Shown here piece by piece: positions 21,001 to 27,000 of a DNA stretch of 64,000 nucleotides. Location of the stretch: NCBI RefSeq assembly GCF_056712565.1, contig NZ_CM160072.1; one strand, 5' to 3'. Every line of letters begins with the position of its first letter. The stretch's first letter is position 1. The position numbers were made by a program.

Positions 21001-24000
21001 ACTTCATGCTGTAAACCAGTACAGCCACGGAAGGCATAACTCATTGCTTCCAGTTCGCCCGGTTCGCCGGGCATTTTTTAAAGGTGAGATTATGAACGAC
21101 CAGCAAATCGAAAAAGAAATCGTTGAGAAAGGCAAAACGGCACCGCGCGTTACGCCAGACCATATCGAAGGCATTATTGCTCAGGAGGCATATTTCACAG
21201 CAGAAGATGGTGCCTTTGGCAAAGCCATAAAAGCGAAACATACTGGCGGAGAGGTAAACTACCAGCCGCACGAATCACTTTCTCTGCTGACGTTCTGCGT
21301 CCTGGTGCTGCGCAACGGCTTCACCGTCACCGGAGAGAGCGCCTGTGCAAGCCCGGAAAACTTTGATGCGGAAATTGGTCGGGAGATTGCCCGGCAGAAT
21401 GCTGTAAACAAAATCTGGATGCTCGAAGGTTACTTGCTGAAGCAGAAGTTAAGCGAGCAATAACACCGTGACATGTCACAAACAGCCAGCCGATGAGCTG
21501 GCTTTGTTTTATCCTCACCAGAGGATATCAGCAGTATTATCCCCACCAGCGGATTAAGCATAAGGGTCATAATCCGTTATGGCCCTTCCCTGCTGGCTTT
21601 GCTGTCCAGGTATATTTATGCGTTTCGAGACCGGGAAAGCAAACGTCAGCAGTAGCGCATCGCCTTTACCCGGCGAACGCCCAAGCCGCTCCTTGATATC
21701 TTCCTTCGGTTCGATAACGATTTTACCGTCCACACGAACTTTGTACTCTGCCGCCGACAGGTCGTCTGCAGTTTCCTGGTCATCCAGCATGCCGCCGAGC
21801 CTCAGCCATGTCTTGCATGAGTTGAACATCTCCCCACGCTTGTTGAGCATCTGCGGGTCAGTAGACGCGCCACCGAACGGAACAAGTTGCCATGTACGTC
21901 CCCAGCCATCACCGATTGACTTCAAACCGGTTCCGTAACCGAAGTCGATGAACACCGCGTCAGCCTGATACTGGTCTTCAAAGTCAGCGATACGCTTCGC
22001 CATAATCAGATCGTCGGTAGTCTTGTTGCCAGTCCACAGCACCTTACTGTGTAGCCCCTGCCGCAGGTATATCACAGCGTCATCAACGCCGGAGTATGCC
22101 GGGTCAACGCCGATTATCACCGGAGCATGTGCAACCTGCGCAGCGGTTACCACCCGTTTCATTGCCTCGTCAGTAAGACCGGTAGGGATAAACTGCAATT
22201 CAGATGCATCAGGGAATATGCCACGCACACGGATTTTAACGAAGTCGCTGTCTTCCCCGTAGTCATCAACCCATTTCTGCAACTGCTGTTTGTTGGTACC
22301 TTCCACCGTCCGACTGTCAATCTGCGCAGTTTTCCAGCGGTGTTTATACTTGCGGAAACATTCACGGAAACGTCCGGTATTACGTGTAGGGTTTCCGAAC
22401 GCCACCCAAATAATCTCAGTGTCTTCGTCCGTAAGCGCACCCTCGGCAACTTCCCACACCAGATCCGCAATGTTCGACGCTTCATCAAACACCACGATGA
22501 TGCGTTTGCGCTCGTTGTGTAGTCCGGCGAATGCCTCGGTGTTGTGCTCAGACCAGGGTATTGCGTCAGCCCGCCACCGCTTGTCGTGCCCTAGGTCATT
22601 GCTGTACATCGCGGTAGCGGTACAGGTAAACCAGTCTTTCGTGATAGCAAGGTTCGACCACTTGATAATTTCCGGCCAGGTCTTCGTTCGTAGCTGGTTG
22701 TCGGTGTTGGCGGTCACCACGACCTTACAATCCTCGCAAGTGGACATGCCCCAGTTGATCAGCATTGAGATGAATGCGGATTTACCAATACCGTGACCAG
22801 AAGCGCGTGCCAGCATAAGCGGCTGATAGCGCGTCTCTGGATTCTGCAGGTGATCACGTATCTCTCGGAACGCATCAGCCTGCCACTGACGTGGGCCGGT
22901 GGCATGTGCCAGTTCAGTCCCCTCTTCCCCCCATGGGAACGCATAGAGGGCATAGCCAAGCGGATCGTGAGTGAACCCTGCAATATCCTCGATTAACTGC
23001 TCTTCAGGAGATAACGCTGTATCTGTCACTGATTGCCATCCTGACGTTCTTTCAGTCTCTTCCTGGCTGCCGCTATGCGATCAGCAATTGTCACATTCAC
23101 ATTAACATCCAGGCGTTCTTTGAATGCGTTGACGTCGACGTGCTTACCAATCAGTTCGAGGTTCTTCACCTTGTCAGGCCATTTAATTTTTTTGAGGATT
23201 GTCTCTATCGAATCCTCGTTCATGTTCATGATGGTCGATGACAGATCAAAGCCACTAAGCGTAGTGCGCCAGATTTTCGGCCACTCGCGGATTGGCTTAA
23301 GGCTCCCATCGTCGTTGAGGATGTCGATCACGTCCATCTGGTCGATCTCCACCAGGCGCATGAGAACGTAATCAGCACTGACGCGCATTCGTTTGTTGCG
23401 CTCCTCCATCAACTCGGCAATCCGTTTTTGAATGCGTTCATCGCGCATCATGACACTGGCTTTAACTGCCGCTGTATTTGGGGAGAATCCTGCGTTAATC
23501 GCTGCCTGAGTCTGGTTTTCAGGCGTTTTGATGTATGACTGGCAATAAGCCTCCTGCATTGCTGTTAGTGGCTTAAATTGCGTTGATTTGCGTTTATAGG
23601 TTTTAGGTTCAGCAGGCATCATAACCACCGTGGTAATAGTTACCGTTGTGGTAATAGTACCATGCAAAATAAAGCCGCCATAGTTGGCGGCAGTATTCAA
23701 AGTCCATCAAATTCATCGTAAAAACTCTCGTCAAGATACCCTTCCCATTTACCGCGAATGAAAATTACATCCTCGCCGCAAGGGTGCTGACTGTCGATAA
23801 CTATATCCCTCCTGGCGCAACCATACTTATGCATGAGAAATTTAACCTCTTTCGGAAAATTTGCTGAGTTATCTCTCATATCTTCAAGGTCGTAGCGTAT
23901 TTTTGGCATAACACCTTCGTGACATGTCACACTATTAATTTCGTTTCATGCCAGCCTTTGGTCACCCAGCATTGCGAGTCACCATTACACGGGCATGAAT

Positions 24001-27000
24001 TAACTGGAACTCTCTCGCCGCACTTACCGCAACGTTTTCTGCTGATCGATTTTATACGCCCGCGCACGCGTGCATCATCCTGGCGGATCAGTAACGCTAT
24101 ATACTCACCAAATTCGTAAGGCGCACGCCCGGGGCGACGCGTGGCACAGTTACGCTCCAGCATTTCAATTTCCTGAGCATCAAGCACAATCTCCAGTTTA
24201 CGCACACCAGATGCAGCTTGTCTGGCTCTCTGAGCGGCTTTGCGCTCTGCTGCTGATTTAGCCATCAATATTCACCTTTATCGCGAACACCTTTACCGGT
24301 TTATCTCCGAAGTGCGGATGTGTGATTGTCTTGATTTCATACCCTTCATACGGGACGTCTATTCTGCGACTGGAATCGTCACGCTTCGGATATCCCTTTG
24401 TGATAATCAGGCGGTCATACTCGCGGAACATAATTCGCTTATTCCAGTAGTCATTACACAGGCGATACTCTTCCGTTTTCTCTCCGCGAATCATGGCATC
24501 GAAGTATTCACCTTTAACGGCAAGTTGCAGGTTAGCCACGACCTTCCTCCTTTGGCTTGTGAATTTGTATCGTCATGCCGCTTTGAGTGGTGACTACAAC
24601 GACAGAACCAGGCTGAAGACTGTTAAGATTGAATGCTTCGTAAAACGAAGCCAAGGCCAGCGCTTTTTTATTCTTTCGGTTCCACCAACGCCATCCATTG
24701 CTACAGGCTACACTGACAATCCACTGTCCACTCCTGTAAGCCATATAAAACCAGATGAGCAAAACCTGAATGAATGCTATCCAGTCAATAATCGTATATT
24801 TCGCGAAGGAGACCATCAATTAACCTCCTGCGGCGGTTCCGGTAGAGGCATCCAGTACAAGGCGTTCCCTAACCACGATAAAGTGCCGTCGCTCAACTCC
24901 ACGTATTCCCCTTGTACCTGTCCTGCCATATACTCGCCGTGCTTTGAATAAATTAAAATCCAATCATCTTGAGCGGGCATTCGCTCACTACAGCTTATCC
25001 AACCATCCGGAGTTACCGGATAGTTGCCCGACAGCTCGTTCAACTTGTAAGTTTGGCTTACAGGTTCGGCTTCCAGTTCTGCAATGCGCTTCTCTGCAGC
25101 TTCCAGCTCAACGCGCAGCTTCCCTACCGTTAGCGCAATTTCCTCGTTCTCCTGGTCGCGGGATTTGATGTATTGCTGGTTCCTTTCCCGTTCATCCAGT
25201 AGTGCCAAAGCAATCTTTGGATTAAAGGCAGCAATAAATTCAGCGTTGTTTTTCAGAACGTGTTGCGCAATGGCCTGACTACTTAGTCGGACCTCATAAC
25301 CACGTGCGCCACGGTGTGGTTTATATGAGTCCCAGTCTCCCCACGTTGCTTTTTCTGCCTTAGCACGCAGTGCCTGATAATCAATCTTGCTCACTGGTTG
25401 CCTCCTTTGCTGGGCTTTCGAATGTATCAAGCTCAAACAACTTAACCACGTCATCAAACAGGACATAATCGCCATCAGAATCTTCAGTCATGTCAGCGCC
25501 ACAATCCTGACCGCACGAGTCACAACCATCCATATCAAGCTCGTATCGCTTCAGGTTTACGATATTTGATAAATTCAGCGCCAGTACAGCCAGGTCATAA
25601 ACCTCTTCGGCAGTGACATCGCTGTTCAGTCCCATTTCATGGCGATATATGATTTTTCCTACTCGTTGTTTTGTGATTGTCATTTTTGCTCACCTCCCTG
25701 TTCTTCCAGAAAAATACGCATAGCCTCAAGCATCTCTTCGGTGTCATACGGTGACAACTTGTCACGCAGGATGTGTTCAATGCTGTTAATGAACTTGCGG
25801 ATTGCTTTGCGTTCAATTTCAGCTAGGAAAGCATCGGTGGCTGGGGTGTCAACACGGATACTGTCGCGCAAGATGAAAAATGCATTGAGCATCCCAGTCT
25901 CCGGCACTTCATCCTGATACTTCTCATACGCATCAAGAGCCTTCATCATCTCAGGTCCGAATGGTTGAGGGTGCGCAGCCTTCAGCGCCGCATTCTCCGC
26001 TGCCAGCGCATTAGCACGCACCAGTTGCACTTCCAGTTGCGTTGCCAAACAGCGAACAAGCACGGATGGTGCGCCTGTCATGTCGTCAGCTAACGCATGC
26101 CCTGATGCCACTAAATCTTTGATCATACCTTCAGCCATACTTTCCATCTTTACCCTCGCTTATCCACATAACTTATTGATTACATTGATAACTAAAAAGA
26201 TCGTCGATTCAGAACTCTTCGATGTTCCAGCCGCAACCTGCTTTCTTTGGTTTAACCGTTACCCCGATGATTCGGAACGGATACTGATCTGCGGCGACTT
26301 TGGTTTTCACCCTGGCGTCGTCGGTCCAGAAACCTTTCACTTCGTGCAGTTCCATCTCTCCGGTGGCGAGCATCACAGCGAAATCTGGCGTATAGAACGT
26401 GTTGTCAGCTAACCGCAGCTTGATACCCTCGAATCGATACCAGGCGATTTCCCCTGCACGTTTACGCAGCTCAAGGTGCTGGCAATACGCAGATTCTGTT
26501 TTGTTCATCTGGCCTGTTTTGAGTCGACCAAGAGCCTGTATCTGTTTTCTCATGATTTACCTCTAAGGTAATTAAAAACCACATAAGACACGAAATCAAT
26601 AGATCTAAGAACATTTTGTTACCTATTGGGTAACTATTGAGGCGTAAAAAAATGCGCTATCGCGCTGGTATTACTTGATAAATCCTGCTGCCTTTCCTCG
26701 CCTGTATTCCTCCATCAGCCACTGCGCCGGTGTTATTCCCCCCAGGGTGGCGGCGTTAGGCATGCACCCGAAACTTCGCCCTGGTGGATGGTAAACGTCT
26801 CTCCCTGTGTCCGGAGGTGTACTCATGGGCTCTGGCTTTGCCTGTATGCTGATCACCGGATCGGGTATCTGCTGTCCGGAAGCCACCTTTTTCGCCCAAT
26901 CATCGAGCAACCTGCGCGCGTGTTTCTCAACCTCAATCTCGCTAAGCTGGCGCTGATACATTGCACGGCGGGTATCACATACGACCCAGTACATAACCGG

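What the first reader, a model, noticed from the sequence alone, without database searches (positions are those of the whole stretch)
23622..24265. Late operon preceded by tandem operator-like sites and a Zn-ribbon protein, with no Q-type antiterminator seen
Between the replication genes and terS there is no recognisable Q antiterminator, and no holin or endolysin appears anywhere in the window. Instead, two operator-like palindromes sit on the terS start and a 112-aa protein with a C-terminal Cys cluster lies just upstream. Late transcription may be controlled directly by the repressor and/or by a Zn-finger activator.
Basis: inference. Interest (0 to 1): 0.45.

Follow-up and report, generated by a model that had tools for sequence, protein, structure and literature searches.

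The report
Repressor-gated start of phage late operon
The packaging genes of this epsilon15/phiV10-type E. coli prophage sit behind a terminator and two binding sites for the prophage's own repressor, an arrangement already annotated in phage epsilon15; the small zinc protein just upstream is an uncharacterised DNA-binding protein that appears to have its own, different target sequence.

Summary
The window carries a Uetakevirus (epsilon15/phiV10/TL-2011b-like) prophage on the minus strand.

- **Operators at terS.** Two copies of TTACC-N5-GGTAA sit on the terS start. One is perfect (23640-23654). The other has one mismatch (23622-23636) and overlaps the ribosome-binding site and ATG. The same palindrome forms OR and OL beside an SPC32H-type repressor. 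It occurs ten times perfectly in the prophage and never in the host DNA. The epsilon15 GenBank record already marks the equivalent terS site as a repressor site.
- **Terminator.** A strong intrinsic terminator lies 13 nt upstream of the first operator.
- **No Q, no lysis genes.** No early gene matches a Q family. The lysis cassette is off-window, beyond the truncated tail fibre gene.
- **The 112-aa protein.** It is not Ogr- or Q-like. It is a ribbon-helix-helix domain joined to a C4 zinc ribbon (epsilon15 gp49 / N15 gp46 family).
- **Its likely target.** I infer a different palindrome, GTGAC-N2-GTCAC. This overlaps the protein's own stop codon and recurs next to distant homologues in at least ten phage lineages. 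Its half-sites match those of MatP's matS.

Direct repressor control of the late operon is well supported. A zinc-finger late activator is not.

The parts
23622..23636 (-). Rep operator b (TTACCACGGTGGTTA, 1 mismatch); overlaps the Shine-Dalgarno sequence GGTGG and the first ATG of terS
   Evidence: imperfect in every relative examined
23640..23654 (-). Rep operator a (TTACCACAACGGTAA, perfect TTACC-N5-GGTAA)
   Evidence: Half-sites are invariant in the seven aligned sequences (window plus six relatives). The equivalent site is annotated 'protein_bind repressor' at 12..27 of epsilon15 AY150271.2.
23654..23662 (-). TGgTACTAT, an extended -10-like element between the terminator and operator a; a candidate Rep-occluded promoter (inference only)
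   Evidence: Conserved as TG(G/T)TACTAT in all seven aligned sequences. The stricter sigma-70 scan did not report it.
23666..23691 (-). Intrinsic terminator GCCGCCAACTATGGCGGC followed by TTTATTTT
   Evidence: dG -16.2 kcal/mol, z -4.7. Annotated as a rho-independent terminator in epsilon15 and phiV10.
23697..23909 (-). 70-aa ORF (phrog_1541, function unknown). It is an insertion absent from phiV10, TL-2011b, PAS61 and epsilon15.
   Evidence: The whole 741-bp stretch that contains it is matched at 80% coverage or more in 101 of 5426 complete E. coli genomes.
23919..23930 (.). Palindrome GTGACATGTCAC (site 1). It overlaps the TGA stop of the 112-aa gene and is the inferred binding site of that protein.
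23927..24265 (-). 112-aa protein of the epsilon15 gp49 / N15 gp46 family: ribbon-helix-helix plus C4 zinc ribbon
23026..23619 (-). terS (Pfam Terminase_2); first gene of the packaging operon
21468..21479 (.). GTGACATGTCAC site 2. It sits between the terL terminator hairpin and the stop of the opposite-strand gp49_66-family gene.
4076..4087 (.). GTGACATGTCAC site 3. It sits 1 nt before the terminator that ends the structural operon.
29020..29604 (+). Prophage repressor, homologue of SPC32H Rep
   Evidence: E 4e-42 to PDB 5D50_A
28902..28964 (.). OR: three TTACC-N5-GGTAA operators overlapping the PR-like promoter TTGTTA-17-TATTAT
2174..3019 (+). Antirepressor (Bro-N domain; C-terminus homologous to SPC32H Ant). 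A Rep operator lies at 2046 and a LexA box at 1718-1737.

Best explanation
The 23622-24265 stretch is the junction between the early-right operon and the packaging (terS-terL) operon of an epsilon15/phiV10-type prophage.

Reading along the minus strand, the order is:
1. the last early gene (112 aa);
2. a GTGACATGTCAC palindrome on its stop codon;
3. an inserted 70-aa ORF;
4. a strong intrinsic terminator;
5. 13 nt later, two operators of the prophage repressor, the second lying on the terS ribosome-binding site and start codon.

In the lysogen (inferred). One tetramer of the SPC32H-type repressor occupies the operator pair. Their 18-bp spacing matches the 17-bp pair in OR. The repressor would occlude the only promoter-like element there (TGgTACTAT) and block any polymerase that leaks through the terminator. 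The late operon is therefore held off directly by the repressor, as at about eight other transcription units of the prophage, rather than only indirectly through a Q-type cascade.

On induction (inferred by homology to SPC32H). LexA cleavage lets the antirepressor be made. The antirepressor dismantles the repressor tetramer and all operators are vacated together.

The 112-aa protein. It is not the operator-binding protein and not an Ogr- or Q-type factor. It is a ribbon-helix-helix dimer-type DNA binder with a C-terminal zinc ribbon. Its inferred site is GTGAC-N2-GTCAC. I think it most likely modulates transcription across the gene ends and terminators where its sites lie. Whether it lets polymerase through or blocks it is not resolved.
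For: Operators.
- TTACC-N5-GGTAA is the top de novo palindrome in the window's prophage and in seven related phage loci.
- There are 10 perfect copies in the prophage and none in host DNA.
- The copies lie in OR, in OL, and before the DUF1064, terS, gp3/portal, tail fibre and ant units.
- Epsilon15 and phiV10 carry copies at the same positions. The epsilon15 GenBank record annotates seven of them as repressor sites, including the one at terS.

Repressor and antirepressor.
- The repressor matches PDB 5D50 Rep at E 4e-42.
- The antirepressor's C-terminus matches 5D50 Ant at E 1e-13, and there is a LexA box at 1718-1737.
- SPC32H Rep binds palindromic sites as a tetramer, and Ant breaks the tetramer (PMC9638917).

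Terminator and conservation.
- The terminator folds at dG -16.2 kcal/mol, z -4.7.
- The terminator-to-ATG stretch is almost invariant across the seven aligned sequences.
- The layout 'terminator, then 13-20 nt, then operator' recurs at 28565, 26619, 23640 and 29662. The second operator of the DUF1064 unit also lies on the ribosome-binding site.

The 112-aa protein.
- AlphaFold model with pLDDT 90.7.
- Invariant CxxC plus two further cysteines.

Its inferred site.
- GTGAC-N2-GTCAC is perfect three times in the window and at the same three places in epsilon15.
- There are 16 perfect copies in about 140 kb of non-Uetakevirus loci that encode a 28-67% identical homologue, against about 0.13 expected by my own estimate. 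In the first ten of those loci (114.5 kb, 14 copies) other spacings gave 0-1 copies.
- The site lies at or within the 3' end of the regulator gene in six lineages.
- As RNA the palindrome folds at only -1.2 kcal/mol.
Against: - No binding or transcript-start data exist for this phage group in anything I could read. Every protein-DNA pairing here is inferred from sequence.
- The stricter sigma-70 scan found no promoter upstream of terS. The TGnTACTAT element scores low without a -35.
- All the relatives examined share one immunity type, so covariation between operator and repressor could not be tested.
- Operator b is imperfect in every phage and is degenerate in the Klebsiella relative.
- For the 112-aa protein, similarity to MatP is structural only; hhalign gives E 0.098.
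- Promoter-like elements around site 1 differ between epsilon15-type and phiV10-type sequences and are absent from the window. No single transcriptional role fits all the site positions.
Confidence: 0.6

Rival explanations
1. The 112-aa protein is the functional substitute for Q. Made last from the early-right operon, it binds the palindrome at its own gene's end and lets polymerase read through the terminator into terS. Its other sites would do the same at the other terminators. Alternatively, it activates a late promoter that overlaps its site.
For: - It occupies the position that Q has in lambdoid phages: last early gene, directly before terS, a holin or a lysozyme. This holds in Uetakeviruses, Vibrio K233 and loci L013, L016, L017 and L019.
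- No Q family is found in this prophage.
- All three window sites lie just upstream of intrinsic terminators.
- Epsilon15, PAT1 and Tyrion have GTGACA-N17-TAAATT (score 12.5), with the predicted start at the foot of the terminator. L016 has TTGACA-17-TATTGT followed by a short leader and a terminator, right after the regulator gene.
- A site embedded in the gene's own stop codon would suit action in cis.
Against: - The family coexists with Q-like genes in N15 and ZF40, with a regulator in the ogr position in a P2-like phage, and occurs in a Mu-like phage.
- In K233 and L019 the site lies 12-19 nt before the terS ATG and downstream of a T-run. That leaves no room for a promoter and is the wrong order for antitermination.
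- The window and phiV10 lack the epsilon15-type -10 element.
- There are no sites before the gp3/portal or tail fibre units.
- The fold is unrelated to Q.
Confidence: 0.22
2. The 112-aa protein is a roadblock-type repressor or insulator, or a regulator of accessory genes. Bound at the end of its own gene and just before the next gene's ribosome-binding site, it would limit transcription into the downstream gene. Pairs of sites 2-3 kb apart might be bridged as MatP bridges matS sites. In this reading it has no role in switching late genes on.
For: - Sites lie 9-24 nt upstream of the next start codon in the window (70-aa ORF), N15 gene 47, L015, K233 (two genes), L019 terS and L022 gemA.
- Most characterised ribbon-helix-helix phage and plasmid regulators are repressors (established knowledge: Arc, Mnt, CopG).
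- In Yersinia phage 42.18 the sites lie next to an accessory region, not at late promoters.
- Paired sites are 2.0-2.7 kb apart in Uetakeviruses, K233, L019 and L015.
- The nearest structural analogue, MatP, bridges sites.
Against: - A repressor made from the early operon that blocks terS has no obvious rationale.
- A roadblock on its own stop codon would truncate its own mRNA.
- There is no experimental precedent for this family.
Confidence: 0.28
3. The tandem repeats on the terS start are packaging signals, that is pac or terminase small-subunit binding sites, rather than repressor operators.
For: In many phages terminase recognition sites lie at or just upstream of terS (established knowledge: lambda cosB, SPP1 pac). 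The phiV10 and epsilon15 records are linearised within about 100 bp of this point.
Against: The identical palindrome forms OR and OL and precedes ant, replication-associated, portal and tail fibre units. That distribution fits a repressor and not a single packaging signal.
Confidence: 0.05
4. The GTGAC-N2-GTCAC palindromes belong to some other factor, such as a phage methyltransferase, host MatP or an RNA element. Their association with the 112-aa family would then be incidental.
For: The half-sites are identical to those of matS, GTGACRNYGTCAC (PMC6907758). Many of these phages encode DNA methyltransferases.
Against: - The spacing is strictly 2, not the 3 of matS: in the ten loci checked, 14 copies at spacing 2 against 1 at spacing 3.
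- The site tracks the regulator gene's 3' end across lineages with unrelated gene content.
- The RNA hairpin is negligible at -1.2 kcal/mol.
Confidence: 0.1

Closest known systems
Epsilon15 predicted repressor sites and the SPC32H Rep-Ant switch (Uetakevirus)
   Same: Same operator palindrome at the same genome positions, including immediately upstream of terS. The repressor and antirepressor are homologous to the SPC32H proteins in PDB 5D50. There is a LexA box at the ant operon.
   Different: This prophage carries an extra 70-aa ORF between the 112-aa gene and the terminator. The epsilon15 record marks only one terS site; a second, imperfect operator lies over the ribosome-binding site. Binding at terS has not been shown in anything I could read.
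Epsilon15 gp49 / N15 gp46 / ZF40 gp22 (PHROG 536, 'transcriptional regulator')
   Same: Direct homologues at 35-78% identity. Same ribbon-helix-helix plus C4 zinc-ribbon pattern.
   Different: None is characterised. The database names rest on similarity only. The cognate palindrome proposed here is not annotated in the records examined and was not found in the literature searched.
Lambda Q with qut, PR' and tR'
   Same: Gene order: a regulator as the last early gene, then a DNA site at the gene's end, then a terminator, then late genes.
   Different: No sequence or fold similarity. The site is a symmetric 12-mer. The family coexists with Q-like proteins in N15 and ZF40. The promoter needed for a Q-type mechanism is not conserved here.
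P2 Ogr / P4 Delta zinc-finger late activators
   Same: A small phage protein with four cysteines encoded near late genes.
   Different: No Pfam Ogr_Delta hit. The N-terminal ribbon-helix-helix domain is absent from Ogr. The cysteine spacing is CxxC-x7-10-C-x6-9-C, not CX2CX22CX4C (Ogr spacing from my own knowledge). The target is GTGAC-N2-GTCAC, not TGT-N12-ACA. A P2-like phage carries both this family and a regulator in the ogr position.
E. coli MatP and matS
   Different: Sequence similarity is not significant (E 0.098). The spacer is 2 bp rather than 3. There is no four-helix bundle or coiled coil; a zinc ribbon takes their place.
Repressors with many dispersed operators (P1 C1; mycobacteriophage L5 gp71 'stoperators')
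   Same: One repressor with more than ten sites across the prophage, many of them inside or between operons and downstream of promoters or terminators.
   Different: The site here is symmetric rather than asymmetric. The repressor family is different. The comparison rests on my own knowledge, not on a test made here.

Membership tests
Q-type antiterminators (lambda, 21 and 82/P22 gp23 types) | Sequence membership in a Q/antiterminator family | tested here: not met
   No Q/antiterminator family hit in Pfam for any of the twelve early-right ORFs scanned, including the 112-aa protein. Six of them were also scanned against PHROGs and NCBIfam.
Q-type antiterminators (lambda, 21 and 82/P22 gp23 types) | A constitutive promoter with a binding element, followed by a terminator, immediately after the gene | tested here: inconclusive
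   The terminator is present. A promoter-like element overlapping the palindrome exists in epsilon15, PAT1 and Tyrion, takes a different form in phiV10, and is absent from the window.
Ogr/Delta zinc-finger late activators | Ogr_Delta domain with CX2CX22CX4C spacing | tested here: not met
   No Pfam hit. The cysteines are C79, C82, a variable third position and C99.
Ribbon-helix-helix DNA-binding superfamily | Strand-helix-helix fold with a basic N-terminal arm | tested here: met
Ribbon-helix-helix DNA-binding superfamily | Binding of a short symmetric or repeated DNA site | not testable with these tools
   Inferred only, from the co-occurrence of GTGAC-N2-GTCAC with the gene.
MatP family | Significant sequence similarity, four-helix bundle, coiled coil, and a 13-bp matS site | tested here: not met
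   hhalign E 0.098. The spacer is 2 rather than 3. The architecture differs.
SPC32H/epsilon15-type Rep operator | The palindrome shared with OR and OL next to a Rep homologue | tested here: met
SPC32H/epsilon15-type Rep operator | Rep binding and repression at the site | not testable with these tools
   Needs EMSA, ChIP or reporter assays.
DksA/TraR zinc-finger RNA polymerase-binding factors | Sequence or fold similarity to TraR/DksA | tested here: not met

The most novel reading that the evidence does not exclude
The epsilon15 gp49 / N15 gp46 proteins would be an unrecognised, widespread class of phage regulators. They combine a ribbon-helix-helix domain and a zinc ribbon and bind a conserved matS-like 12-bp palindrome placed on the stop codon of their own gene. 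They would act in cis at the early-to-late junction. In Uetakeviruses, which lack Q, they would form the Q-independent switch that lets polymerase pass the terminators bounding the packaging and structural operons.
Probability: 0.2. Interest if true: 0.7.

Novelty: new member of a known kind. Interest (0 to 1): 0.4.

Why it matters
Prophages carrying this region are common: part of the 741-bp stretch around the finding matches 1059 of 5426 complete E. coli genomes. They include serotype-converting phages. How they time late-gene expression without a Q-type factor has not been established in anything I could read.

The analysis shows two things:
- The packaging operon carries its own repressor operators. 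This fits a design in which one repressor gates every transcription unit.
- The conserved last early gene now has a concrete, testable DNA target.

If the protein-site pairing holds, a family of more than 150 sequence clusters, spread across podo-, sipho-, myo-, Mu-like and telomere phages, gains a function to test.

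Tried and rejected
- **Ogr/Delta-type and Q-type readings of the 112-aa protein.** Rejected: no family hits, different cysteine spacing and a different fold.
- **Covariation of the terS sites with repressor specificity.** Not possible: all eight prophage and phage loci compared, including the window, use the same palindrome.
- **A conserved sigma-70 late promoter around site 1 or the operators.** Predictions disagree between epsilon15-type and phiV10-type sequences and the window. The stricter scan finds only PR.
- **An RNA-hairpin role for GUGACAUGUCAC.** Rejected: dG is only -1.2 kcal/mol.
- **MatP membership.** Rejected.
- **The search for related loci with the family alignment.** Failed: no sufficiently conserved stretch.
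- **Key papers.** The epsilon15 genome paper (Kropinski 2007) and the SPC32H paper (Kim and Ryu 2013) are not held. What they say about operators is known to me only through the GenBank record, a citing paper and memory.

Full report
**What the window is.** Genes around the finding run on the minus strand and are nearly identical to Uetakevirus phages (phiV10, TL-2011b, PAS61, ZX5; epsilon15 more distantly). Going down in coordinates, the order is:
- integrase at 33456-34703, next to guaA;
- a leftward operon (RecT, a PerC-like protein, a methylase);
- the repressor at 29020-29604 (plus strand);
- a cro-like gene, DnaT/O-like and P-like replication genes, and a DUF1064 gene;
- Ead/Ea22, DUF4752 and ASCH-like genes;
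- the 112-aa gene at 23927-24265;
- terS at 23026-23619 and terL at 21557-23029;
- portal, capsid and tail genes;
- an opposite-strand antirepressor region at 1634-3792;
- a tail fibre gene that starts near 1561 and runs off the window.

**Checking the observation.** All four elements are real.
- *The palindromes.* On the minus strand they are TTACCACAACGGTAA (23640-23654) and TTACCACGGTGGTTA (23622-23636), 18 bp apart. The second contains the terS Shine-Dalgarno sequence and abuts the ATG.
- *The operator family.* The consensus TTACC-N5-GGTAA is also found three times between the repressor and cro genes, where it overlaps the only strong sigma-70 promoter in the region, and twice just downstream of the repressor gene. 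It also lies before the DUF1064 gene (two copies, the second again over the ribosome-binding site), before the gp3/portal unit, before the tail fibre gene, and in the ant region.
- *Statistics.* Ten copies are perfect and all lie in the prophage. At up to 2 mismatches there are 56 matches against 18.4 +/- 4.3 in shuffles.
- *The protein.* The 112-aa ORF has an invariant CxxC plus two further cysteines.
- *No Q.* None of the twelve early-right ORFs scanned hits a Q or antiterminator family.
- *No lysis genes.* No phiV10-type holin, endolysin or spanin is present in the window. In phiV10 and epsilon15 these genes lie beyond the tail fibre gene, next to attP, which here is off-window.

**The operators belong to the prophage repressor, and this is already on record for epsilon15.**
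- The repressor matches the SPC32H repressor structure 5D50 at E 4e-42.
- The C-terminus of the Bro-N antirepressor matches the SPC32H antirepressor in the same PDB entry at E 1e-13. A LexA box sits at 1718-1737.
- A citing paper summarises that SPC32H Rep binds palindromic sites as a tetramer and is taken apart by tetrameric Ant (PMC9638917).
- A de novo palindrome count picks TTACC-N5-GGTAA as the top palindrome in the window's prophage and in epsilon15, phiV10, Tyrion, a Klebsiella prophage, TL-2011b, PAT1 and PAS61.
- The sites occupy the same positions in epsilon15 and phiV10.
- The epsilon15 GenBank record annotates seven of them as 'protein_bind: repressor', including 12..27 directly upstream of terS. 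It also marks a rho-independent terminator just after gp49.
- The terminator-to-ATG stretch is almost invariant among the seven aligned sequences, the window plus six relatives. Operator a is always perfect in its half-sites and operator b always imperfect.

Because all relatives share one immunity type, covariation could not be tested.

- *A terminator.* A strong intrinsic terminator (23666-23691; dG -16.2 kcal/mol, z -4.7) lies 13 nt upstream of operator a. The layout 'terminator, then 13-20 nt, then operator' recurs after cro, after the replication genes and after the repressor gene. I infer that the operators partly act as blocks that back up leaky terminators, in addition to covering promoters.
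- *A possible promoter.* Between the terminator and operator a, all seven aligned sequences keep TG(G/T)TACTAT, an extended -10-like element whose last T is the first base of the operator. This is the only candidate for a local terS promoter. It is weak evidence, and the stricter scan did not report it.
- *An inserted ORF.* A 70-aa ORF (23697-23909, phrog_1541) sits between the 112-aa gene and the terminator. It is absent from phiV10, TL-2011b, PAS61 and epsilon15. The 741-bp stretch that contains it is matched at 80% coverage or more in 101 of 5426 complete E. coli genomes. A Klebsiella relative has a different insert at the same spot, driven by a LexA-box promoter.

**The 112-aa protein.**
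- It belongs to PHROG 536, has no Pfam family, and matches 154 clusters in the 50%-identity library.
- Homologues include epsilon15 gp49, ZF40 gp22 (67% identity), N15 gp46 and phiKO2 (35-37%), P2-like Yersinia phages, Vibrio and Aeromonas phages, and a Mu-like phage.
- The AlphaFold model is confident (pLDDT 90.7). It shows a basic N-terminal helix, an extended segment, two helices, a small zinc ribbon and a short C-terminal helix.
- It is therefore not an Ogr/Delta-type or Q-type protein.

**A second palindrome that tracks this protein.** The same de novo count showed GTGAC-N2-GTCAC recurring.
- *In the window* it is perfect three times. One copy is on the stop codon of the 112-aa gene (23919-23930). 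One is beside the terL terminator (21468-21479). One is 1 nt before the terminator that ends the structural operon (4076-4087). Epsilon15 has it at the same three places.
- *Next to distant homologues* it also appears at the gene's stop in ZF40, N15 and L015, and with one mismatch in L017. In the Mu-like L022 it lies inside a C-terminal extension. It lies 12-19 nt before the terS ATG in Vibrio K233 and L019. It occurs as tandem pairs in L013 and in Yersinia phage 42.18.
- *Statistics.* In about 140 kb of such non-Uetakevirus loci there are 16 perfect copies, against about 0.13 expected by my own estimate from sequence length. In the first ten of those loci (114.5 kb, 14 copies) other spacings of the same half-sites gave 0-1.
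- *Not an RNA element.* The RNA version folds at only -1.2 kcal/mol.
- *Resemblance to matS.* The half-sites equal those of matS, GTGACRNYGTCAC (PMC6907758), the target of the best structural match. The spacer is one base shorter, and sequence similarity to MatP is not significant.

I conclude, by inference, that this palindrome is the protein's binding site. No paper in the searched library contains the sequence.

**What the protein does is unresolved.**
- *For a Q-like role.* The gene is the last early gene, directly before terS or a lysis cassette, in several lineages. The window's three sites all precede terminators. Some relatives show promoter-like elements over or next to the site followed by a terminator.
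- *Against a Q-like role.* The family coexists with Q-like genes in N15 and ZF40, and with a regulator in the ogr position in a P2-like phage. Several sites sit too close to the next start codon for a promoter and downstream of, not before, a T-run. The promoter-like elements are not conserved even among close relatives, and the window has none. The portal and tail fibre units have no site.
- *The alternative.* A roadblock, insulator or looping role fits the site positions at least as well.

**Verdict.** The zinc-finger-activator half is not supported as stated. The added value here is the fold assignment of the 112-aa family and its candidate 12-bp target.

Noticed in passing
window 20429-20439, 1626-1636 and 26577-26587 (minus strand); L008 2990 and 24753; L009 3310, 20923 and 35118: A conserved motif, (C)ATATGTGGTT, lies about 30-50 nt downstream of the Rep operators of the gp3/portal, tail fibre and DUF1064 units. 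In epsilon15 it also lies downstream of the lysis unit's operator. It is not found at terS. It could be a late-promoter or leader element; epsilon15's record marks RNase III sites there.
   Followed up: partly
window 20817-20893 (+): A tRNA-Arg (anticodon TCT) gene sits in the terL-portal intergenic region, on the strand opposite the late genes. A Klebsiella relative has a tRNA-Arg at the same place.
   Followed up: partly
window 27865-28017: Six copies of an 18-24-nt repeat (ATCCCGTTTTTGGGAT...) lie inside the DnaT/O-like replication gene. They probably represent origin iterons.
   Followed up: no
window 1718-1737 and 2174-3019: A LexA box (TACTGTATAAACATACAGTT) lies in the divergent region between the tail fibre gene and the ant operon. 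The antirepressor's C-terminus matches SPC32H Ant. Together these indicate an SOS-to-antirepressor induction route.
   Followed up: partly
L011 (Klebsiella phage ST512-KPC3phi13.3) about 20290-20620: At the position of the window's 70-aa ORF this relative carries a different 85-aa ORF. It is driven by a strong TTGACT/TATACT promoter with a perfect LexA box (TACTGTTTAAATATACAGTA). The gp49-terS gap therefore appears to be a hotspot for inserted genes.
   Followed up: no
window 32316-32612 (+): A PerC-family 'transcriptional activator' homologue lies in the leftward operon. It is another untested candidate regulator of phage genes.
   Followed up: no
window 28565, 26619, 23640 and 29662: Four Rep operators each start 13-20 nt after an intrinsic terminator hairpin and T-run. 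The repeated geometry suggests that the repressor backs up the terminators.
   Followed up: partly
L016 5357-5520: In a distant homologue's locus the gap after the regulator gene holds two different palindromes (AACATAAATCATGTT and AACACGAAACGTGTT). The second abuts a near-consensus promoter (TTGACA-17-TATTGT), which is followed by a strong terminator just before the late genes. This is a Q-like layout with a different palindrome.
   Followed up: no
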